Source: a phage
Sequence record: PZ445427.1
DNA: 64,000 bases
Strand: one strand, 5' to 3'
The first letter of the stretch is position 1, and each line of letters opens with the position of its first letter. Both the position numbers and the translations under genes were made by a program. The notes beneath the pieces are model-generated. The model was not told where the DNA came from. It did not search any database and worked only from the letters and a program-made list of their open reading frames with translations. Positions 25,636 to 44,424 of this stretch are shown here, piece after piece.

Positions 25636-26044
25636 GATCAGTCTCCTCTAGTTCGTCAACGATTTCAAGATGATGGGTTGAGTAGTGTGGTAGTACCACT
25701 AGCTGACAAAGTCTCTCGAAATTCTCCAGAGTTTGCATTTCAGAACCGTAGTTAAACAGGTTCATCTTAATAGTACCACGGTAGTCTGAGTCAATCACTC
25801 CTGCGGTGTTTGCGATCATCAGTTTACGTTTACCTAAAGAGCTGCGAGGAACTACCAAACCAAACCAACCTCGCGGAATTTCCACCGCGACACCGGTGTC
25901 AATCATAAGGGATTTGCCTGGTGCAATAGCACGTAAATCTGCTGCAAGGTTAGTACCAAAGAATGCACGCAGATCCATACCTGCGGCATCATTAGAACCA
26001 ATCTTTGGCATGCAATCTGGATGAGTTAGTTTAATTTTAATCAT
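25598..26044 (-). CDS. dut: dUTPase
   Basis: 148 aa with dUTPase motifs (AAGMDLRA, GLVVPRSSLG, RGEGGFGSSG). Confidence 0.85.
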   Translation of the reverse strand: MIKIKLTHPDCMPKIGSNDAAGMDLRAFFGTNLAADLRAIAPGKSLMIDTGVAVEIPRGWFGLVVPRSSLGKRKLMIANTAGVIDSDYRGTIKMNLFNYGSEMQTLENFERLCQLVVLPHYSTHHLEIVDELEETDRGEGGFGSSGSK

Positions 26045-26916
26045 TGTCCTGCGATCTCCAAAATATCTTTCGTAAACTTATCTAGTACGTCTTGACCCAC
26101 AGCAGCAATAGCATCTATACAATAGGTCGGTAAATCAACCAGAATCAAATTTCGGAAAAGCAACTCCTCCGATGCATTTAGATTCTGTATATATTTCTGT
26201 TTCCCAGGCAGAGGGAGTTGATCAATAATATCCAGAACATTACCAAATTCACGGATAATATTATAACCGCGTTTTGCACCAATGCCTTCAACACCACGGA
26301 TGTTATCACCTAGATCTCCCATAATTGCTTTCAGAGAGATAAATTGGTCAACATCATCAACGTTATGGTGCTCATACATATCACGAAGATGATACTCACG
26401 ACGTGTGGTAAAGGAGAAGCGAGAAACTCGATCAGTCAGTAAGGTATCCCAGTCTCCATCAGTAGAGATCAGCCAAACGTGATCATATAAATGACCAATG
26501 AGCTTAACAATATAAGCTGCCATGTCATCTGCTTCTACACCCCGAATAGTGAAGGTTGGGAATGTAGTTTCACACAACTCAAAAGCATCACGAAGATACT
26601 CAAAGAACTGTTCGTCTAGTGCTTTCTCTTCTTCTGTACGTTGTGCATACTTTTCGTCACGGTTCCCTTTGTAATCAGGAAGATGTTCTAAACGGAATAC
26701 AGACTTTCCTTTATCGCCTAGAACGATTGTAGTTCTAGCTGAATAGGATTTTGCTAAAGATTGAATTGTAGAAACATAACTTGAAGCGAATGGTTTCTTA
26801 CTATTATTATGTTTGAAGCGGAAGCCTAAGTTAGTTCCATCAACAATCATTAGGTTGCGACGAGAAGCCAGCTCAGCTTCTTCCTCTTCAATAAATTTTC
26901 CCCAGGATTTACTCAT
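26041..26916 (-). CDS. Flap endonuclease / 5'-3' exonuclease (T5 D15-like)
   Basis: 291 aa; N-terminus MSKSWGKFIEEEEAELASRRNLMIVDGTNLGFRF and overall sequence match my recollection of the T5 D15 exonuclease; FEN motifs (IVDGTN, GVEADD, ISTDGDWD). Confidence 0.9.
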   Translation of the reverse strand: MSKSWGKFIEEEEAELASRRNLMIVDGTNLGFRFKHNNSKKPFASSYVSTIQSLAKSYSARTTIVLGDKGKSVFRLEHLPDYKGNRDEKYAQRTEEEKALDEQFFEYLRDAFELCETTFPTFTIRGVEADDMAAYIVKLIGHLYDHVWLISTDGDWDTLLTDRVSRFSFTTRREYHLRDMYEHHNVDDVDQFISLKAIMGDLGDNIRGVEGIGAKRGYNIIREFGNVLDIIDQLPLPGKQKYIQNLNASEELLFRNLILVDLPTYCIDAIAAVGQDVLDKFTKDILEIAGQ

Positions 26917-30237: not shown

Positions 30238-31011
30238 TTAGTCGTCCAGATCGCTAGCAGCTTCAGCGTCGATGCCTTTCTGAGAACCAGCATCTCCACC
30301 AGACTTAGCGTCACCGCCGTCTTGCTTCTCACGACCTTCCATGAAGGCGAGAATAGCTTCTTTCTGCTCTTCATAGGACGGAACCGGGTAGGTTTCTTCC
30401 AGAGAAGGAACTTTTTCGAACTTGATGAACTCACCAGTATCATCACACATAGCTTCACCGAGGATATCAACATCAGCGGCGTGCAGTTTAGACTCAGCAC
30501 TGGTAGGATCTTTCAGTTTCATCTGGAACTGCATTGCTGCGATCTGCTGTACATCGTACTCAGTATCGAAGCCTTTACCTTTCTTCTCGATAGAAATATC
30601 GATATCGAATGGATCTGCCAGTTCAAGCTGCTTCATGATAGACTGGATGCCTTTCAGGATAGTAGCTTTAACTTCCATAACTTTCAGTTTGTTATCGGAA
30701 CGGTCGATAACGAAGGCGATGTAGTTTTTCTTCGGTTTCAGCGGAACACGATTACCCTCTTTGTCCAGCTCTTTTTCGAAGAAGCCCATTTCGTGAATCG
30801 GGTCAGCTTTACCGCGAATGAAGCTCTCTTTAGTACGGTTGAAACGCAGGCACTCAAACGGAGCTGCATTACCATCTTTGTTAGTCAGCCAGTAGACATA
30901 ACGTGGAAGAACACCAGAAACGATACGAACACGAGTTACACCGTTGTTGAATTTCAGGAAGTCGATTTTATCGTTAGAACCGCCAGTAGTTTCGCCCCAA
31001 GACTTAGCCAT
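30238..31011 (-). CDS. Putative ssDNA-binding / replication accessory protein with acidic C-terminal tail
   Basis: 257 aa; Gly/Asp-rich acidic C-terminus (...GGDAKSGGDAGSQKGIDAEAASDLDD) reminiscent of phage SSB tails; host-like codon usage; assignment tentative. Confidence 0.4.
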   Translation of the reverse strand: MAKSWGETTGGSNDKIDFLKFNNGVTRVRIVSGVLPRYVYWLTNKDGNAAPFECLRFNRTKESFIRGKADPIHEMGFFEKELDKEGNRVPLKPKKNYIAFVIDRSDNKLKVMEVKATILKGIQSIMKQLELADPFDIDISIEKKGKGFDTEYDVQQIAAMQFQMKLKDPTSAESKLHAADVDILGEAMCDDTGEFIKFEKVPSLEETYPVPSYEEQKEAILAFMEGREKQDGGDAKSGGDAGSQKGIDAEAASDLDD

Positions 31012-31366
31012 ATTTTATTTCCTCTTTAAAGATTATCTTCGATTTATTGATTGCAATTAGTGGGTTAGTATCGATTACAGAACGTGGTATCCATACGGGA
31101 ACATATTGCATGTCCAAACTCGGATCGTTTGTAAACTTATATTCGGCATAATTTCGTAGACTTAGAATTCCTAGATATTCTGCCAGTTGTCTATTAGACA
31201 ATTTGTAAGGGTTATCAACAATAGTTGATTCATTCAAGATGAATGAAGAACCGACCAGTAGTTGGTGAGCATCAGGCTCTGCAAGCATTCTATTAAATAG
31301 CTTGACAATCAGGTCGGAGTTTCCTCTAGCTAAGAGGTAAATTCTCTCGTAATCGAAGAATTTCAT
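31004..31366 (-). CDS. Hypothetical protein
   Basis: 120 aa ORF with ATG at 31366 preceded by a TGAGAGA-type RBS and a TATAAT promoter. Confidence 0.45.
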   Translation of the reverse strand: MKFFDYERIYLLARGNSDLIVKLFNRMLAEPDAHQLLVGSSFILNESTIVDNPYKLSNRQLAEYLGILSLRNYAEYKFTNDPSLDMQYVPVWIPRSVIDTNPLIAINKSKIIFKEEIKYG

Positions 31367-31393
31367 TTTTGTCTCTCATCAATTTATGTATAT

Positions 31394-31423
31394 ATTATAC
31401 ATTAAATCGGGAGGATTTGACAA
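31394..31423 (-). promoter_or_regulatory. Early sigma70 promoter (proximal) for gene 31004-31366
   Basis: On the - strand TTGTCA, 18-nt spacer, TATAAT, followed by the T5-type leader ...AAATTGATGAGAGAC... and the ATG. Confidence 0.6.
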
Positions 31424-31494
31424 GTACAATTTTTATTTTTCTGCTTCGGACTTTCTTATCAATCCGAAACTTTCTCTCTCAAATTTATGTGTAT

Positions 31495-31523
31495 ATTATA
31501 CAATAATTATGAGCAGTTGCCAA
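31495..31523 (-). promoter_or_regulatory. Early sigma70 promoter (distal duplicate) downstream of the HNH gene
   Basis: On the - strand TTGGCA, 17-nt spacer, TATAAT, followed by ATAAATTTGAGAGAG leader but no adjacent ORF. Confidence 0.55.
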
Positions 31524-31531
31524 ATGCAATT

Positions 31532-32062
31532 TTACTTATCTAAGTCCTCACGTCGGCAAATATATCCTTTGAATAGTTCTTGCCTGGAATCCATACCTAG
31601 ATGCTGTGCTCTAAGTTCGTTAGCTTTATTTATAGCTAACTCTAATTCTTCATAAGGGAATAACCCACCATATATTTTAACACCTATACAGTTAGTTATT
31701 TCTACTTTCCATTTAGAAGAGTTAGTATCCCAGTGTATACCTAAGTATCCCGAAGTACTTCTAGTGTTTCTGTTTCTGCAGTTTTGCTGATGTGTGGTCT
31801 CTCGCAAGTTATTCCACCTATTATCCCATCTTATACGATTAATATGGTCTATCTCTTCAGGAAACCTGCCTTCCATGTATAGGAAGGCTAGCCTATGCGC
31901 AGGATAAGATATTTTATCTATTTTTATATAAACATAACCATTAGAATTACGAGACCCAGCAATACTTCCTTTTGCAGCTCTACCTTTAGCTACTCTACGA
32001 GTAAAATCACCTGTATCTGGATTATACTCGAAAAGTTCTTTGAGCTTATCTTGTGTTATCAT
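31532..32062 (-). CDS. HNH homing endonuclease
   Basis: 176 aa; HNH_3-type motif ...EIDHINRIRWDNRWNNLRETTHQQN...; inserted between helicase and the downstream early genes. Confidence 0.7.
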   Translation of the reverse strand: MITQDKLKELFEYNPDTGDFTRRVAKGRAAKGSIAGSRNSNGYVYIKIDKISYPAHRLAFLYMEGRFPEEIDHINRIRWDNRWNNLRETTHQQNCRNRNTRSTSGYLGIHWDTNSSKWKVEITNCIGVKIYGGLFPYEELELAINKANELRAQHLGMDSRQELFKGYICRREDLDK

Positions 32063-32063
32063 T

Positions 32064-33410
32064 TTATGCCTTAAATACTTCCTGGGCTAATCTAACTGCT
32101 TTCTCCGGAGTCATAGTAATAGTTTTCCACGCATTATTGCGATACACGGCCATACGTCCAGAAGCCTGTCTTAAACCAGTACCTCCTTTCATAATTAGAT
32201 CTACAACAATCGGATCTAGCTTTCCGTCAACAATACGTTGAACGCGGCCTGCTAACTGTTCTATGAGAGATTCATTATTAATGAGACTTCCCATTATTAA
32301 ACAAGACAGCTCGTTAAGAGAAATACCTTCTGAGAAGATACTCTGAGCTGCTGCAAGCACACAGGGTCCGCCCTCCGCTACATCTTTCTGGATTCTCAAT
32401 CGGTCATCCAAAGGAGTTGCACCTATAATCTCATAGGTTGTAACACCACGTTGTGCGAGAGCTTCTAATATTGTTTGGATTAGTTCCGTCCTATCACTTA
32501 CAAAGAGAACCTTATGCCCCATAGACACATATAAATGTGCTAGGTTTATAATAGTTTCCCGATATTCAGGATGATTATATACATCATTAGCACGTAGTGC
32601 CCACGGTACGTTCTGGTTTCCTGATAATTCTACAGGCACGGAGTACCTATGGATTGTGGGTGGAACAGTATTATTAACCGGAGGACTAAAGATCTTATAT
32701 CCAAAGAAGTCTTTGAACATAACTTGTAGCCCATCTTTACGTTTTAATGTACCTGATAGACCGATCTTGTAGCGAGCACATGAGATCTCTAGGAAATTAG
32801 TGAAAGTTGTAGCTACACAGTGGTGAACTTCATCAACTATAACAGTACCGAATACCTTAGAAAGATTATTCGCATGTTTGTTCACTGTTTGTATATTACT
32901 GACCACGATTGGTGGATCAATGTTATACTTTCCAGAACCTATAATACCCGGCTCGAATCCAAACCATTTACGAACTTCTGCAGCCCACATTTCACGAATG
33001 GATGTGTTAGTGCAGATTACCAGAGTTTTCTGGCCAAACTTATATGCAAGAGCTAGAGCTAGGATAGTTTTACCAAATCCAGGCTTACCATTAATAATAC
33101 AGGTATCATCGCACTCTTCATATATAGGAAGCTGATCTTCTTCACGTAGCTTGAACTGAGGTTCTGGTATTTCTACCGGAGCTAATGTGCGTTTATCAAC
33201 TAATTCGTATTTTACTCCCTTAGCATCTAGCAAATCCAGACGCGTAATGGGAATCCACTTAATCTCTTTAGCAACAACACCACTATTCTTATACATAATA
33301 GGGTATTTACTAGTCATTGTCTCGATGTGGTAAGTGGTTTGTTTACTACAATAATCCCAGAGTTCATCATCGGGCTTGAAATAGGCTTTATTAGATATAA
33401 CAACCTTCAT
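32064..33410 (-). CDS. SF2 (DEAD/DEAH-box) DNA helicase (T5 D10-like)
   Basis: 448 aa; Walker A GKPGFGKT, Walker B VIVDEVHH, helicase C-terminal motifs. Confidence 0.8.
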   Translation of the reverse strand: MKVVISNKAYFKPDDELWDYCSKQTTYHIETMTSKYPIMYKNSGVVAKEIKWIPITRLDLLDAKGVKYELVDKRTLAPVEIPEPQFKLREEDQLPIYEECDDTCIINGKPGFGKTILALALAYKFGQKTLVICTNTSIREMWAAEVRKWFGFEPGIIGSGKYNIDPPIVVSNIQTVNKHANNLSKVFGTVIVDEVHHCVATTFTNFLEISCARYKIGLSGTLKRKDGLQVMFKDFFGYKIFSPPVNNTVPPTIHRYSVPVELSGNQNVPWALRANDVYNHPEYRETIINLAHLYVSMGHKVLFVSDRTELIQTILEALAQRGVTTYEIIGATPLDDRLRIQKDVAEGGPCVLAAAQSIFSEGISLNELSCLIMGSLINNESLIEQLAGRVQRIVDGKLDPIVVDLIMKGGTGLRQASGRMAVYRNNAWKTITMTPEKAVRLAQEVFKA

Positions 33411-33904
33411 AATTTTATTCTAAGTCTAGGAATTTCAGGCTCCTCTTGATGGACTTGATAAATAACAGGGCTATTATTTACCAGAATATAGCTTATATAA
33501 GCTGGAACATAGGATAGCACGAATGGATATGGGACTTTAGCCACATAGCATTGATACTTTCCATTATAAATTCTTGCAGAATGCAGAACTTTAGACGTGA
33601 TAACATCGTAGAACGTAGTTTTCTTCCAGTTAATGAGATTTCCATCAGAATCTATGAACTGGCTACGCTTTGACCCAACTAATTGGGACAACATTGATAT
33701 TCTACCACGAATAGGATAGAGCTTATAAGGTAATTCTTTCCGCTTCTCAAATAAGGCTAACCTACGTTGAGAGAATGTGCCAGGCAACTCCCTGTTATCT
33801 AGCACATATTTATTATATCTTGTTGTAATTACGGAATAATCACCTTCCTGCTCAATTGATACAAATGCCCGTAAAGCATATACGGGCAATTTGAAATCAA
33901 GCAC
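33407..33904 (-). CDS. Hypothetical protein
   Basis: 165 aa ORF translationally coupled between DNA polymerase and helicase genes. Confidence 0.45.
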   Translation of the reverse strand: MLDFKLPVYALRAFVSIEQEGDYSVITTRYNKYVLDNRELPGTFSQRRLALFEKRKELPYKLYPIRGRISMLSQLVGSKRSQFIDSDGNLINWKKTTFYDVITSKVLHSARIYNGKYQCYVAKVPYPFVLSYVPAYISYILVNNSPVIYQVHQEEPEIPRLRIKL

Positions 33905-36464
33905 CTAAAATCCTTTTCACATTATCCAGATCTTTACATACAGCAATAAACTTATCATCCTTGTACTTGCTGTGGTCTGGATGCTCTTTATCCATTGCAG
34001 CTAACTTCTTATACTCGAAATCTGCATCGAGTAATACACCCTTAACATAACGAGTATATTCATCATCATCAATACAAGCGATTGATGGGTGCTGTTTCTT
34101 CATCTTACCACAAGAGTAGTCACGAGAACCACCTTTCTCAGAATCAGAATCAATACCGATTGGGCAGCCAGGGATACTAATACCACGATCCTTCTGGATG
34201 TTACGAATCAGAATCTCGTTATACTGATCAATCAGATCTTCACGTACAATAGCAACCACGGAGTCGTGAACCAACATGACAATCTTCATCTCTTTTCCTA
34301 GACCCAGGGACAGGATTTCTTCATCAGCATCAATAGCACCTAACAACAGGCTATCAGAAGATGCAGACTGAATGATTGCGTTAAATCCAGAACGGATTTC
34401 TTCACCCTGAACACCACGATCTTCGGAGTGGATATTGTGCAGACGACGCTTACGACCAAAGTGACTATAGATGAATCCAAAGTTCTTGATCTGATCGTGG
34501 CACTTATCAATCCAACGCTTAAGCTGAGGGAACTGACCGAAGTAAGTTTCGATATAGTCCTTCGCATCTGCAACGGTACATTCAACAAACGGTTCGCCTG
34601 TCTTAGCGGCCTGTTCCAGAAGAGCTTCGTTAACAGAGTGAGCGACTTTAGCTGGGCCAGAACCATACAGAATACCGAAGGTAATTGCCTTAGCAGCCTG
34701 ACGCAGAGCTGGGAACAACTTCTTAACATCACGCGGTTCACAGGTCAGTTTAAATACCATGTGTGCGATGTTTGAGTGGAAGTCAGGGTATTTATCAGGC
34801 TCATTCTTCATGTTGATAAATACTTGTTGCATATTTCTGTCACCAGACAGAACAGCAGCATAATAAACTTCCGCAGTTGTTAAGTCCCATGCGATTACAC
34901 GATATCCAGGAGGAGCTACTACACAACCCTTGATAATAGATTCATCACGTGGTAGCTGTTGCAGGTTCAGCTTACCAGAAGAACTCAGACGACCAGAAGT
35001 AGTCATATGTTCATGGAAACCAGTACGAATGCAACCATCTGCATCAATGCTCAGAAGAATCTTCTCAACATAAGTAGAGATCAGCTTAGTCAGCTTACGA
35101 ATCTCTAGCAGAGTCTTAGCAATTGGATGCTGAGTAGCCAGTTCGTTCAGAGCTTCTGCGTTTGTAGAATCTGCACCTGTATCTGTCAGCTTACCAGTTG
35201 GAGTCAGACCAACATAATCAAATAAAAGAACACGGAGCTGCTTAACAGAGTTAGGGTTAAATGCTTCGTTCTGGTCTTTTTCTAGCTGAACGACTTCTGG
35301 ATAAGTATACAGTTTCTCACGAGCCTTGTTCAGATTGTGAGTTAGCTGATACTGAGCTTCTTTCAAGCGATCAACAGAAATCGGTACACCACGATCTTCC
35401 ACACGTTGCAAGAATACACAACCAGGCATCAGAACGTCATAGTATAGACTGCAAAGCTTTTCATTCTTCTCAATTTTCGGTAAGAAGAAGTTATGCAGAC
35501 GCAGAGTAGCATCGGTATCTTTTGCAGCATAAGGCCACATAATATCAAATGGAATCAGATCATAGCTGAAATCTTCTTTCTTGATCTTATGTGCTTTGCA
35601 ATAATCCTCCTTGAACTTATCCAGTTCAAAGTCATAATCACCCATGTCAGTATACTTCATAGCCAGAGATTTCAGGCCGTGAGTACCACGACGTTCATCA
35701 AGAACATAGTGTTGTAACATGGTATCGTGAAGTCTACGCTCTTTATGTGCTTTCTCAAAGGAAAGTCCTAGATGATAGGAGTAAAAGTGCATATCAAACT
35801 TCAAGTTATGAAAAACGATCTGATGATTCTTGCTATCCAGAATTTTCTGGAGATAATGTACAGCTACTTCGGTGATACTGTCAGAGTCAATATAGACACC
35901 CTGATACTCTTGGTGAGACATAGAAACACCAAGCAGATAACCATCACGAGCATACAGAGCCGAGGTTTCGGAGTCGAATGCGATAGGCCCGATAACCATG
36001 TTATACACCATCTTGATGTATTCTTCAGCTTCATCTGGATCAGTAATAGGACGATAGTCACCGGCTTTTGCAATCTTCTCACGACCATTAATAATGTCGT
36101 GAATACTTTCTACAGTTGCTTCAAAGACCGGTTTCATTTCAGGCTTAAAGTGTAGCTGAGCTGGACTGATACTTGCAATCCAGTTGGCGTAGCCACCATG
36201 CTCTACACGTTTACCAGTATAATCACCGATACCTTTCTTACCTGCGAAATACAGGAAAGGTTCAGCACCAACTAGTACCACAAAATCGTAATCGTTCGGA
36301 TCGAACGGGTTATCTGGAGTTCCGATTGTAATATGCTTTTTCAGCAGACGACCAGATAACTTCTCGTTACACATATGGAATACATCAACTTCCTCACCAT
36401 AGAGTTGGAAGTGTTTATCATAACGAGTGTTATTTAGAGCTTTATCAACTACTGCAATTTTCAA
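33897..36464 (-). CDS. DNA polymerase (family A, T5-type) with 3'-5' exonuclease domain
   Basis: 855 aa, the same length as I recall for T5 DNA polymerase; exonuclease motifs (AFDSETSA, YAAKDT) and Pol A motifs (DLTTAEVYYAA, KAITFGILYG, VHDS). Confidence 0.9.
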   Translation of the reverse strand: MKIAVVDKALNNTRYDKHFQLYGEEVDVFHMCNEKLSGRLLKKHITIGTPDNPFDPNDYDFVVLVGAEPFLYFAGKKGIGDYTGKRVEHGGYANWIASISPAQLHFKPEMKPVFEATVESIHDIINGREKIAKAGDYRPITDPDEAEEYIKMVYNMVIGPIAFDSETSALYARDGYLLGVSMSHQEYQGVYIDSDSITEVAVHYLQKILDSKNHQIVFHNLKFDMHFYSYHLGLSFEKAHKERRLHDTMLQHYVLDERRGTHGLKSLAMKYTDMGDYDFELDKFKEDYCKAHKIKKEDFSYDLIPFDIMWPYAAKDTDATLRLHNFFLPKIEKNEKLCSLYYDVLMPGCVFLQRVEDRGVPISVDRLKEAQYQLTHNLNKAREKLYTYPEVVQLEKDQNEAFNPNSVKQLRVLLFDYVGLTPTGKLTDTGADSTNAEALNELATQHPIAKTLLEIRKLTKLISTYVEKILLSIDADGCIRTGFHEHMTTSGRLSSSGKLNLQQLPRDESIIKGCVVAPPGYRVIAWDLTTAEVYYAAVLSGDRNMQQVFINMKNEPDKYPDFHSNIAHMVFKLTCEPRDVKKLFPALRQAAKAITFGILYGSGPAKVAHSVNEALLEQAAKTGEPFVECTVADAKDYIETYFGQFPQLKRWIDKCHDQIKNFGFIYSHFGRKRRLHNIHSEDRGVQGEEIRSGFNAIIQSASSDSLLLGAIDADEEILSLGLGKEMKIVMLVHDSVVAIVREDLIDQYNEILIRNIQKDRGISIPGCPIGIDSDSEKGGSRDYSCGKMKKQHPSIACIDDDEYTRYVKGVLLDADFEYKKLAAMDKEHPDHSKYKDDKFIAVCKDLDNVKRILGA

Positions 36465-40508: not shown

Positions 40509-40538
40509 CAAATTTCTTCCTTATCAATTTATATAAAT

Positions 40539-44122: not shown

Positions 44123-44153
44123 ATTTAAACTCCTCTCTCAAATTTATGAATCT

Positions 44154-44182
44154 ATTATACAGAAAAATTTTCCTAAAAGCAA
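44154..44182 (-). promoter_or_regulatory. T5 PN25-type strong early promoter
   Basis: The - strand reads TTGCTTTTAGGAAAATTTTTCTGTATAATAGATTCATAAATTTGAGAGAGGAGTTTAAATATG, nearly identical to the PN25 sequence as I recall it. Confidence 0.8.
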
Positions 44183-44190
44183 ATAAATTT

Positions 44191-44424
44191 TTACGATTCT
44201 TTGAGCAAAGAAGCAAGTTCAGCATAGACTTTATCTAACTCAAAGCCAATGCGAAGAGACACACGAGTCTTCCGTTGTTTAAGTAACCATATGGAGACGT
44301 TAGGGATGCCAGCGAGACGAGGTGGTACAACCCTACATAGTTTCTCCGCAGTATCGTAAACAGAAGTTTTACGTTCTTTTACGGGAAACTTCCTTGTTTC
44401 CCACTTTTTATTCTTCGCTGTCAT
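44191..44424 (-). CDS. Hypothetical small basic protein
   Basis: ORF starting MTAKNKKWETRK..., overlapping the stop of the upstream large gene by about 17 nt. Confidence 0.35.
   Translation of the reverse strand: MTAKNKKWETRKFPVKERKTSVYDTAEKLCRVVPPRLAGIPNVSIWLLKQRKTRVSLRIGFELDKVYAELASLLKES

What the first reader, a model, noticed from the sequence alone, without database searches (positions are those of the whole stretch)
31367..32062. HNH homing endonuclease gene in the replication module flanked by a duplicated early promoter
A 176-aa HNH_3-type endonuclease (31532-32062) sits between the SF2 helicase gene and downstream early genes. Immediately downstream of it are two near-identical promoter-leader units (TTGGCA-17-TATAAT-ATACACATAAATTTGAGAGAG at about 31495-31523 and TTGTCA-18-TATAAT-ATATACATAAATTGATGAGAGAC at about 31394-31423), and only the proximal one is followed by an ORF. 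The duplication of the promoter-leader is the kind of scar expected from insertion of a mobile homing endonuclease cassette.
Basis: partly seen in the sequence, partly recalled or inferred. Interest (0 to 1): 0.35.

Follow-up and report, generated by a model that had tools for sequence, protein, structure and literature searches.

The report
Mobile HNH endonuclease gene, ancestral promoters
A selfish HNH homing-endonuclease gene sits at the very end of the helicase gene of this T5-like phage, as in roughly one in seven related phage records. The two promoters after it are ordinary ancestral T5 early promoters, not an insertion scar, so the finding is real but ordinary.

Summary
A 176-aa HNH_3 ORF (31532-32062, minus strand) follows the D10 helicase gene. 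Two strong sigma-70 promoter units lie downstream (31495-31523 and 31394-31423).

The HNH gene is a discrete 551-bp cassette (31535-32085). About 57 related phage records carry this variant and 9 carry a second variant, out of about 440. The rest lack it at exactly the same junction. Intact copies are under purifying selection (dN/dS 0.04-0.12), and two copies are frameshifted. Flank SNPs 44-48 bp away are unlinked to its presence. This is the classic picture of a free-standing homing endonuclease gene. It is a paralogue of T5 F-TflV (54% identity).

The cassette sits inside the last codons of D10. It supplies a substitute C-terminus (QEVFKA*), a stop codon and a coupled start codon.

The promoter "duplication" is not a scar. 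Both promoters are present, base for base, in close HNH-less relatives, and they are annotated in T5 as P31A and P31B. They resemble each other (74%) little more than they resemble other early promoters in the window. A Klebsiella relative without the HNH has three such units.

Cleavage and homing were not tested. Interest is low.

The parts
31535..32085 (-). 551-bp homing-endonuclease cassette. It is present in a minority of related phages and absent at exactly this junction in the rest.
   Evidence: Anchor-to-anchor distance is 626 bp in HNH-plus and 75 bp in HNH-less relatives. The junctions are ...ATTAGC|CCAGG...GATAAG|TAAAATTGC.
31532..32062 (-). HNH_3-family endonuclease ORF (176 aa). 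Its stop codon TAA (31532-31534) is the first triplet of the shared right flank.
   Evidence: Pfam HNH_3 E=9e-15. PHROG 99 'HNH endonuclease' E=3e-59. 54% identical to T5 hegE F-TflV. A family profile hits I-HmuI (1U3E) at E=8e-5. dN/dS is 0.04-0.12.
32064..32094 (-). Cassette-linked 3' end of the D10 helicase gene. It has three linked substitutions (32092-32094, TAG instead of ACA) and a substitute tail ...R-L-A-Q-E-V-F-K-A-stop, which replaces ...Q-L-A-K-I-A-F-G-N-C-S-stop of the empty allele.
   Evidence: The only fixed flank differences between 8 HNH-plus and 7 HNH-less genomes are at -9 to -7. D10 is 1347 nt in HNH-plus and 1353 nt in HNH-less records. The tail co-diverges with the endonuclease in variant B.
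32064..33410 (-). D10-type SF2 helicase gene. Its stop is 1 nt before the HNH start (TAA-A-ATG).
   Evidence: ResIII, Helicase_C and DEAD domains. Annotated as D10 in T5. Sequence read.
31495..31523 (-). Early promoter, orthologue of T5 P31A. In the empty allele its -35 element lies inside the last codons of D10.
   Evidence: Matches 11 of 12 consensus positions. Aligns to the annotated T5 P31A. Identical in the HNH-less phage misterkot.
31394..31423 (-). Early promoter, orthologue of T5 P31B. It drives the 120-aa ORF and the D11/SSB gene.
   Evidence: Matches 11 of 12 consensus positions. Aligns to the annotated T5 P31B.
31443..31470 (-). Conserved 10-bp hairpin in the leader transcribed from the first promoter, followed by an A-rich tract upstream of the second promoter.
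   Evidence: RNA fold z-score -5.4 for 31367-31493. 100% identical in T5. A hairpin is retained in a Klebsiella relative with a relocated 5' arm. No Rfam match. No U-tract follows it, so it is not a canonical terminator.
31004..31366 (-). 120-aa ORF of unknown function (T5.125 homologue), the first gene downstream of the tandem promoters.
   Evidence: PHROG 4258 E=8e-63, unknown function. Annotated in relatives.
32090..32095 (-). TTAGAT, the left copy of a short imperfect direct repeat at the two cassette ends (TTAGATTAGC ... TTAGATAAGT). The right copy is at 31538-31543.
   Evidence: Read from the sequence. It may be microhomology or chance.
31538..31543 (-). TTAGAT, the right copy of the short direct repeat at the cassette ends.
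   Evidence: Read from the sequence.

Best explanation
The window comes from an Epseptimavirus (a T5-like phage). A free-standing HNH homing-endonuclease gene, a paralogue of T5 F-TflV in the I-HmuI/HNH_3 group, occupies a 551-bp cassette. The cassette is inserted within the last codons of the D10 helicase gene, immediately upstream of the ancestral tandem early promoters P31A and P31B.

The cassette brings its own substitute helicase C-terminus, a stop codon, a weak Shine-Dalgarno sequence (AAGG) and an ATG 1 nt after the helicase stop. The endonuclease is therefore most likely made by read-through transcription and coupled translation from the early replication operon.

Inferred mechanism: in a mixed infection the enzyme nicks or cuts the HNH-less allele at or across the junction sequence (...CAATTAGC|TAAAATTGCATTTGGCA). 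That sequence is invariant in the sampled HNH-less relatives, probably because it encodes both the helicase tail and the promoter -35 region. Recombinational repair from the HNH-plus genome then copies the cassette in. The insertion itself, together with three linked substitutions, destroys the site and protects the carrier.

The two promoters are unrelated to this event. They are a conserved tandem pair of the T5 early-promoter class that drives the downstream 120-aa ORF and the SSB (D11) gene.

Shown: the polymorphism, the exact boundaries, the domain family, purifying selection, decayed copies, a second allelic variant, and promoter conservation in empty alleles. Inferred: enzymatic activity, target site, homing, and mode of expression.
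For: **Family.** HNH_3 domain. PHROG HNH endonuclease. 54% identity to T5 hegE F-TflV. A family profile hits I-HmuI at E=8e-5. The catalytic D-H and Asn residues are invariant in an alignment of five paralogues.

**Polymorphism.** 58 of 440 matching phage records cover the HNH region, and the rest show a 551-bp gap. By protein search, 57 records carry a copy at 90% identity or more.

**Boundaries.** The junction is identical in all eight HNH-plus and nine HNH-less genomes examined. The outgroups T5, S131 and a Klebsiella phage are empty, with an uninterrupted helicase tail overlapping the promoter, so insertion is the derived state.

**Mobility signals.**
- Flank SNPs at -48 and +44 occur in both states, which fails the four-gamete test.
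- Synonymous divergence of the HNH gene exceeds that of neighbouring D10 for window versus saus132 (0.22 versus 0.08).
- Variant B (64% identical, 9 records) sits at the same site. In RUS_R2 a divergent patch starts about 38 bp inside D10, which looks like a co-conversion tract.
- dN/dS is 0.04-0.12 in intact copies. The beppo and RUS_R2 copies are frameshifted.

**Literature.** Published comparisons of T5-like genomes attribute most local differences to F-Tfl-type HNH homing endonuclease genes (PMC10644984).

**Promoters.** Both are present and identical in HNH-less misterkot and annotated as P31A and P31B in T5. 467 records hold the tandem region.
Against: - No cleavage or nicking activity, target site or unidirectional transfer was tested for this protein or, to my knowledge, for F-TflV.
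- The single-sequence structure model was unusable (pLDDT 35).
- The AP2-like DNA-binding domain is supported only weakly (E=0.05).
- T5-like phages recombine heavily, so the unlinked flank SNPs could reflect general recombination rather than homing.
- Every listed record in the 80-90% identity band (the band that holds T5 and S131, genus Tequintavirus) is empty, although the T5 and S131 junction sequence differs only at position -9 and at one base in the promoter spacer. This is unexplained; it could reflect ecology, sampling or specificity.
- Strong purifying selection is also compatible with a function that benefits the phage.
Confidence: 0.83

Rival explanations
1. One reading: insertion of the HNH cassette duplicated a promoter-leader unit, and the second copy is an insertion scar.
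For: The two units share an identical 19-nt core and a similar -35 and upstream region. They are each other's best match among the seven promoters compared, by a small margin (0.74 versus 0.71 or less).
Against: Both units, their spacing and the intervening hairpin are identical in HNH-less misterkot. They are present in T5 and in all seven other sampled HNH-less genomes, and are annotated in T5 as P31A and P31B. 467 records hold the tandem region against about 60 with the HNH gene. A Klebsiella T5-like phage without the HNH has three units. Both units lie on the same side of the cassette. Homing does not generate duplications (established knowledge).
Confidence: 0.02
2. The HNH gene is ancestral at this site and was lost repeatedly by deletion. 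The polymorphism reflects decay, not active mobility.
For: Frameshifted copies exist in beppo and RUS_R2. Divergence between variants A and B (64% amino-acid identity) shows the gene has been at this site for a long time.
Against: All HNH-less genomes share exactly the same junction, with an intact alternative helicase tail (...LAKIAFGNCS*) that overlaps the promoter -35. The outgroups T5, S131 and the Klebsiella phage have that arrangement. Repeated deletions would not regenerate it precisely. The HNH state is unlinked to SNPs less than 50 bp away.
Confidence: 0.05
3. The endonuclease is domesticated. It is kept because it helps the phage, for example by excluding co-infecting relatives or by binding DNA at P31A as a regulator, rather than as a purely selfish homing element.
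For: dN/dS of 0.04-0.12 is close to that of the neighbouring helicase (0.02-0.03). The cassette abuts the upstream region of promoter P31A. A possible AP2-like DNA-binding region is present.
Against: The gene is absent from about 85% of close relatives, which are viable isolates. Pseudogenised copies exist. Exclusion of competitors is mechanistically the same act as homing. There is no evidence for regulation.
Confidence: 0.1

Closest known systems
Bacteriophage T5 F-Tfl HNH endonucleases, especially hegE / F-TflV (T5.051)
   Same: 54% amino-acid identity over 167 residues, similar length (170 versus 176 aa), the same HNH_3 core and the same C-terminal region. It is a free-standing gene in a T5-like genome. 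GenBank annotators already transfer the name 'hegE F-TflV' to the orthologue in phage MET_P1_137_112.
   Different: T5 hegE lies at 25.6 kb among early genes of unknown function, not in the replication module. T5 is empty at the D10/P31A site. This gene is therefore a paralogue at a different site and presumably has a different target. [quoted passage not shown] 2004, cited in PMC10644984 and PMC2330249).
I-HmuI (phage SPO1, PDB 1U3E) and the HNH_3 / zf-His_Me_endon group of the His-Me finger superfamily
   Same: A profile of this family matches I-HmuI residues 36-113 at E=8e-5, including the catalytic His and Asn motif. That group is described as homing endonucleases with NUMOD, HTH or AP2 DNA-binding modules (PMC5714182).
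   Different: I-HmuI is encoded in a group I intron and nicks one strand (my own knowledge). This gene is free-standing. Its C-terminal module looks AP2-like (weak, E=0.05) rather than like the I-HmuI helix-turn-helix. Strand specificity is unknown.
Free-standing homing endonuclease genes of T4-like phages (Seg and Mob proteins; 'intronless homing', e.g. SegB and SegF)
   Same: A small ORF inserted between or at the ends of conserved genes. It has a patchy distribution among close relatives and is expressed from host-operon transcripts. It is presumed to spread by cleavage of the empty allele, with co-conversion of flanks (PMC2330249).
   Different: Seg proteins are GIY-YIG enzymes. Here the cassette interrupts the last codons of a helicase gene and supplies a substitute tail, rather than lying strictly between genes.
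T5 early promoters P31A and P31B, and the T5 early-promoter class (e.g. PN25)
   Same: Positional orthologues of the annotated T5 P31A and P31B. They share a near-consensus -35 and -10, an AT-rich discriminator and a conserved ATAAATT...GAGAG initial transcribed region with other early promoters in the window. PMC7472727 reports a shared AT-rich discriminator (ATATT) for T5 early promoters.
   Different: None of note. A few substitutions in the spacers relative to T5.

Membership tests
Free-standing HNH (HNH_3 / I-HmuI group) homing endonuclease gene | His-Me finger (HNH_3) catalytic core with a conserved His general base and Asn residues | tested here: met
   Pfam HNH_3 E=9e-15, 54.5 bits against a cut-off of 24.8. 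D72-H73, N85 and N94 are invariant among five paralogues. A family profile matches I-HmuI at E=8e-5.
Free-standing HNH (HNH_3 / I-HmuI group) homing endonuclease gene | Separate sequence-specific DNA-binding module (NUMOD, HTH or AP2) | tested here: inconclusive
   Residues about 101-164 match the AP2 domain of WRI1 (7WQ5) only at E=0.05. Pfam finds no second domain even at E up to 10. The AlphaFold single-sequence model is unusable (pLDDT 35).
Free-standing HNH (HNH_3 / I-HmuI group) homing endonuclease gene | Presence/absence polymorphism at one fixed site among otherwise collinear genomes | tested here: met
   An exact 551-bp indel with an identical junction in 8 HNH-plus and 9 HNH-less genomes. 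58 of 440 records are occupied.
Free-standing HNH (HNH_3 / I-HmuI group) homing endonuclease gene | Not embedded in an intron or intein | tested here: met
   It is an independent ORF starting 1 nt after the helicase stop. There is no Rfam intron or other RNA family at 30900-32200.
Free-standing HNH (HNH_3 / I-HmuI group) homing endonuclease gene | Evolutionary signature of invasion, maintenance and decay | tested here: met
   dN/dS is 0.04-0.12 in intact copies. Copies in beppo and RUS_R2 are frameshifted. The outgroups are empty. The HNH state is unlinked to SNPs at -48 and +44.
Free-standing HNH (HNH_3 / I-HmuI group) homing endonuclease gene | Site-specific nicking or cleavage of the endonuclease-less allele and biased inheritance in mixed infection | not testable with these tools
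   This requires purified protein and phage crosses. The only indirect hint is the divergent patch in RUS_R2 and bobsandoy that extends about 38 bp into D10.
T5 F-TflV (hegE) orthologue | Same genomic position as T5 hegE | tested here: not met
   T5 hegE is at 25638-26150 of AY543070. The T5 D10/P31A site is empty. The relationship is paralogous (54% identity).
T5 early promoters P31A and P31B | Positional and sequence orthology with the annotated T5 promoters | tested here: met
   T5 annotation of P31A (75467-75541) and P31B (75568-75642). The alignment is nearly identical from the P31A -35 through the P31B leader.
T5 early promoters P31A and P31B | Promoter activity in vivo | not testable with these tools
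   Only consensus matches (11 of 12 for each) and the T5 annotation are available.
   Both units are present in all 9 HNH-less genomes examined and in 467 records overall.

The most novel reading that the evidence does not exclude
The cassette may be more than a gene dropped between genes. It invades the coding 3' end of the D10 helicase gene at a sequence under double constraint (helicase tail plus the -35 and upstream region of promoter P31A). It avoids harm without an intron or intein by carrying a substitute helicase C-terminus, and that tail co-diverges with the endonuclease in two allelic variants (A and B, 64% identical). If the two variants have diverged in specificity, or if the AP2-like domain also binds next to P31A and modulates it, this would be a compact natural example of a homing endonuclease co-evolving with a portable patch of its host gene and possibly with a promoter.
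Probability: 0.2. Interest if true: 0.3.

Novelty: already known. Interest (0 to 1): 0.13.

Why it matters
It matters little beyond good annotation. Homing endonuclease genes are already recognised as the main source of local differences among T5-like genomes (PMC10644984). This gene is already labelled 'homing endonuclease' or 'HNH endonuclease' in many GenBank records.

Three practical points follow:
- The exact cassette boundaries and the empty-site sequence give a ready-made substrate for testing the enzyme's target.
- The helicase C-terminus differs between carriers and non-carriers, which annotators and structural studies of D10 should know.
- Tandem copies of the T5 early-promoter consensus should not be read as mobile-element scars.

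Tried and rejected
- **Structure prediction.** The single-sequence AlphaFold2 model of the HNH protein had mean pLDDT 35 and was unusable, so no fold search was run. I ran no further search on a second model, because family assignment was already secure.
- **PDB search with the single protein.** It gave only a chance hit (calcium uniporter, E=0.13). A small family profile was needed to reach I-HmuI.
- **Pfam at E up to 10.** No second domain was found.
- **Rfam on 30900-32200.** No match, so the conserved hairpin has no known family.
- **Hairpin as a terminator for the helicase/HNH transcript.** Rejected. An A-rich rather than U-rich tract follows it on the transcribed strand, and the terminator scan does not call it.
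- **A different insert in records matching only 37% of the query (e.g. S131).** Rejected. They are empty, and their helicase gene is simply too divergent for megablast.
- **IrmaTschudi as a third variant.** Rejected. It carries the ordinary variant A.
- **My first promoter regex scan.** It missed known sites because of an over-strict -35 rule, so I used the sites instead.
- **Gentz and Bujard 1985 (PMC214212).** Not held in the library. Statements about PN25 rest on my own knowledge.
- **A second copy of this HNH family in the window.** None was found (tblastn).

Full report
**1. What is in the sequence**

All genes in this part of the window run on the minus strand. In order they are:
- a family-A DNA polymerase (33897-36464);
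- a 165-aa ORF (33407-33904);
- an SF2 helicase (32064-33410; ResIII, Helicase_C and DEAD domains);
- the 176-aa ORF of the finding (31532-32062);
- a 165-bp non-coding stretch;
- a 120-aa ORF (31004-31366);
- a 257-aa ORF (30238-31011; PHROG 'single strand DNA binding protein').

The 176-aa ORF matches Pfam HNH_3 (E=9e-15, above the curated cut-off) and PHROG 99 'HNH endonuclease' (E=3e-59).

The non-coding stretch holds the two best sigma-70-like sites of a 4-kb scan. They are TTGGCA-17-TATAAT (31523-31495) and TTGTCA-18-TATAAT (31423-31394), each matching 11 of 12 positions.

Two details need correcting. Both promoter units lie downstream of the HNH gene, so the gene is not flanked by them. 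The unit followed by an ORF is the one farther from the HNH gene.

**2. Where the window comes from**

The 1.7-kb region matches 440 phage records. The best are Salmonella and Escherichia phages of the genus Epseptimavirus (family Demerecviridae, T5-like) at 97-99% identity. T5 itself matches at about 89%. The helicase is T5 D10, the 257-aa protein is D11/SSB and the 120-aa ORF is T5.125.

**3. The HNH gene is a discrete, polymorphic cassette**

- In one search, 58 records cover the whole query. The others match in two pieces with a 551-bp gap.
- I fetched 8 HNH-plus and 9 HNH-less loci and measured the distance between a helicase anchor and the promoter anchor. It is 626 bp in HNH-plus genomes (628 in beppo, 630 in RUS_R2) and 75 bp in every HNH-less genome.
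- The empty allele reads ...GAGAAAGCAGT(A/T)CAATTAGC|TAAAATTGCATTTGGCAAC.... The occupied allele reads ...GAGAAAGCAGTTAGATTAGC|CCAGG...551 bp...GATAAG|TAAAATTGCATTTGGCAAC....
- In window coordinates the cassette is 31535-32085.
- Among the eight HNH-plus genomes and the seven HNH-less Epseptimavirus genomes compared, the only fixed flank differences are three bases at -9 to -7 (32092-32094).

**4. The insertion is inside the helicase gene, not between genes**

In HNH-less genomes D10 is 1353 nt and ends ...V-Q-L-A-K-I-A-F-G-N-C-S-stop. Its last codons contain the -35 hexamer of the first promoter (TTGGCA), and its stop codon lies in the promoter spacer.

In HNH-plus genomes D10 is 1347 nt and ends ...V-R-L-A-Q-E-V-F-K-A-stop. 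The new tail, the stop, an AAGG motif and the HNH start codon (TAA-A-ATG) are all supplied by the cassette. The HNH stop codon TAA is the first triplet of the shared right flank.

No credible promoter precedes the HNH ORF. Expression by read-through and translational coupling with D10 is therefore the likeliest mode; this is an inference.

**5. Evidence that it behaves like a homing endonuclease gene**

- **Insertion is derived.** The outgroups are empty, with the uninterrupted tail: T5 and S131 (Tequintavirus) and a Klebsiella T5-like phage. In the Klebsiella phage the D10 tail (...N-L-D-K-I-L-F-A-K-N-P-K-V-stop) also overlaps a promoter -35.
- **The HNH state is unlinked to nearby SNPs.** Both alleles of the SNPs at -48 and +44 occur in both states. 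The two major flank haplotypes each occur with and without the cassette.
- **The ORF is selected, but some copies have decayed.** Intact copies show dN/dS of 0.04-0.12, against 0.02-0.03 for D10. The beppo copy has a 2-bp insertion and is annotated as two ORFs. The RUS_R2 copy is frameshifted relative to its intact twin in bobsandoy.
- **A second allelic variant occupies the same site.** Variant B (177 aa, 64% identical) is found in 9 records. It has its own version of the cassette-borne helicase tail (R-L-A-Q-E-I-F-K-T-stop). In RUS_R2 the divergent patch begins about 38 bp inside D10 and ends about 125 bp before the HNH stop, after which the sequence is identical to variant A. This looks like a co-conversion or recombination tract from a divergent donor. 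It also shows that the substitute tail travels with the endonuclease.
- **Divergence is uneven.** For window versus saus132, the HNH gene is more divergent at synonymous sites (0.22) than the adjacent helicase (0.08).

All this fits the invasion, maintenance and decay cycle known for homing endonuclease genes (established knowledge). It also fits the published statement that F-Tfl-type HNH genes cause most local differences among T5-like genomes (PMC10644984). None of it demonstrates cleavage or biased inheritance.

**6. Family**

- The closest characterised-by-name relative is T5 hegE (F-TflV, T5.051), at 54% identity over 167 residues. T5 hegF, hegH and hegG are more distant.
- T5 hegE lies at 25.6 kb, in a different module, and the T5 D10/P31A site is empty. 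This gene is therefore a paralogue at a different site.
- A profile of five paralogues reaches the intron-encoded nicking enzyme I-HmuI (1U3E, E=8e-5) across the HNH core. It reaches the AP2 domain of WRI1 (7WQ5) weakly (E=0.05) across residues about 101-164.
- This is consistent with the HNH_3 group being described as homing endonucleases with NUMOD, HTH or AP2 modules (PMC5714182). The AP2 assignment remains inconclusive: Pfam finds nothing and the single-sequence model failed.

**7. Likely target (inference)**

Apart from the insertion and the three adjacent substitutions, HNH-plus and HNH-less flanks are interchangeable. Any immunity of the carrier allele must therefore come from disruption at the junction. 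This places the recognition site across ...CAATTAGC|TAAAATTGCATTTGGCA....

The stretch from ATTAGC through TTTGGCAAC is invariant in all nine HNH-less genomes, including T5. That is plausibly because it encodes both the helicase tail and the -35 and upstream region of a strong promoter. Homing endonucleases typically exploit conserved targets of this kind.

**8. The promoters are not a scar**

- T5 has no HNH gene here, yet both promoters are annotated as P31A (overlapping the end of D10) and P31B.
- In misterkot, which is HNH-less and 99.3% identical to the window in the flanks, the whole stretch from the P31A -35 to the start of the 120-aa ORF is identical to the window.
- The tandem region is found at 80% coverage or more in 467 records. 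About 57 records carry variant A and 9 carry variant B.
- The 19-nt core motif occurs six times in the window against 0.22 expected. The other sites are at 40526, 41892, 44141 and 62767.
- Over -45 to +30 the two units are 74% identical to each other. Each is 60-71% identical to the other five promoters compared, and two unrelated promoters reach 76%.
- Their likeness therefore reflects the T5 early-promoter class, with its AT-rich discriminator and conserved initial transcribed region (PMC7472727). The resemblance to PN25 is from my own knowledge.
- A Klebsiella T5-like phage without the HNH has three such units at this site. The number of units can change over evolutionary time, but independently of the endonuclease.
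- An ancient tandem duplication that predates the T5/Epseptimavirus split cannot be excluded, and it is irrelevant to the cassette.

**9. Verdict**

The feature is real and correctly located. The gene is an ordinary, already annotated, free-standing HNH homing-endonuclease gene of the T5 F-Tfl family. The 'duplicated promoter scar' reading is refuted.

The points added here are:
- the exact boundaries of the cassette;
- the fact that it replaces the helicase C-terminus;
- the second allelic variant;
- the inferred target.

Interest is low.

Noticed in passing
window 31443-31470 (minus strand): There is a 10-bp hairpin in the leader between the two promoters. It is 100% conserved in T5. A Klebsiella T5-like phage keeps a hairpin with the same 3' arm but a relocated 5' arm. 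The conserved A-rich tract CAGAAAAATAAAAA follows it. It is not a canonical terminator and has no Rfam match. It may be a 5' stabiliser or processing site, or part of an UP element for the second promoter.
   Followed up: partly
window 31364-31366; L001 (T5) about 2184-2186: The ATG start of the 120-aa ORF in the window is ATT in T5. T5.125 is accordingly annotated 26 codons shorter (285 nt). SuperGirl and IrmaTschudi are also annotated with the short form.
   Followed up: no
L010 (Salmonella phage vB_Sen_SG_WM_RUS_R2) 3907-4437: This phage has a second 176-aa HNH endonuclease gene between the SSB (D11) and D12 genes. It is only 28% identical to the one studied. The window has no gene at that position, so this looks like another insertion hot spot in the same module.
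   Followed up: partly
window 44126-44207 (minus strand), -10 hexamer at 44154-44159: This promoter is nearly identical to what I recall as the classical T5 PN25 promoter used in pQE-type expression vectors (...AAAAATTTATTTGCTTTTAGGAAAATTTTTCTGTATAATAGATTCATAAATTTGAGAGAGGAGTTT). It shares the leader motif with the two promoters of the finding.
   Followed up: no
L018 (Klebsiella phage vB_Kpn_K7_rec18) 1100-1340: This phage has three tandem promoter-like units, rather than two, between the helicase gene and the T5.125 homologue. The first overlaps the helicase tail as in T5.
   Followed up: partly
window 32090-32095 and 31538-31543: TTAGAT occurs at both ends of the cassette (TTAGATTAGC ... TTAGATAAGT), while the empty allele has a single related copy (ACAATTAGC). 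It may be microhomology from the original insertion, or it may be chance in AT-rich DNA.
   Followed up: partly
L008 (Salmonella phage beppo) 2039-2571: The HNH gene carries a 2-bp insertion near codon 63 and is annotated as two overlapping ORFs. It is a decaying copy.
   Followed up: yes
rows H14, H53 and others: Several T5-like records in the phage collection are labelled Campylobacter, Listeria or Corynebacterium phages (e.g. MG065642 'Campylobacter phage A148', PQ773600 'Corynebacterium phage'). They are about 90-99% identical to Salmonella and E. coli T5-like phages, so they are probably contaminants or mislabelled hosts.
   Followed up: no
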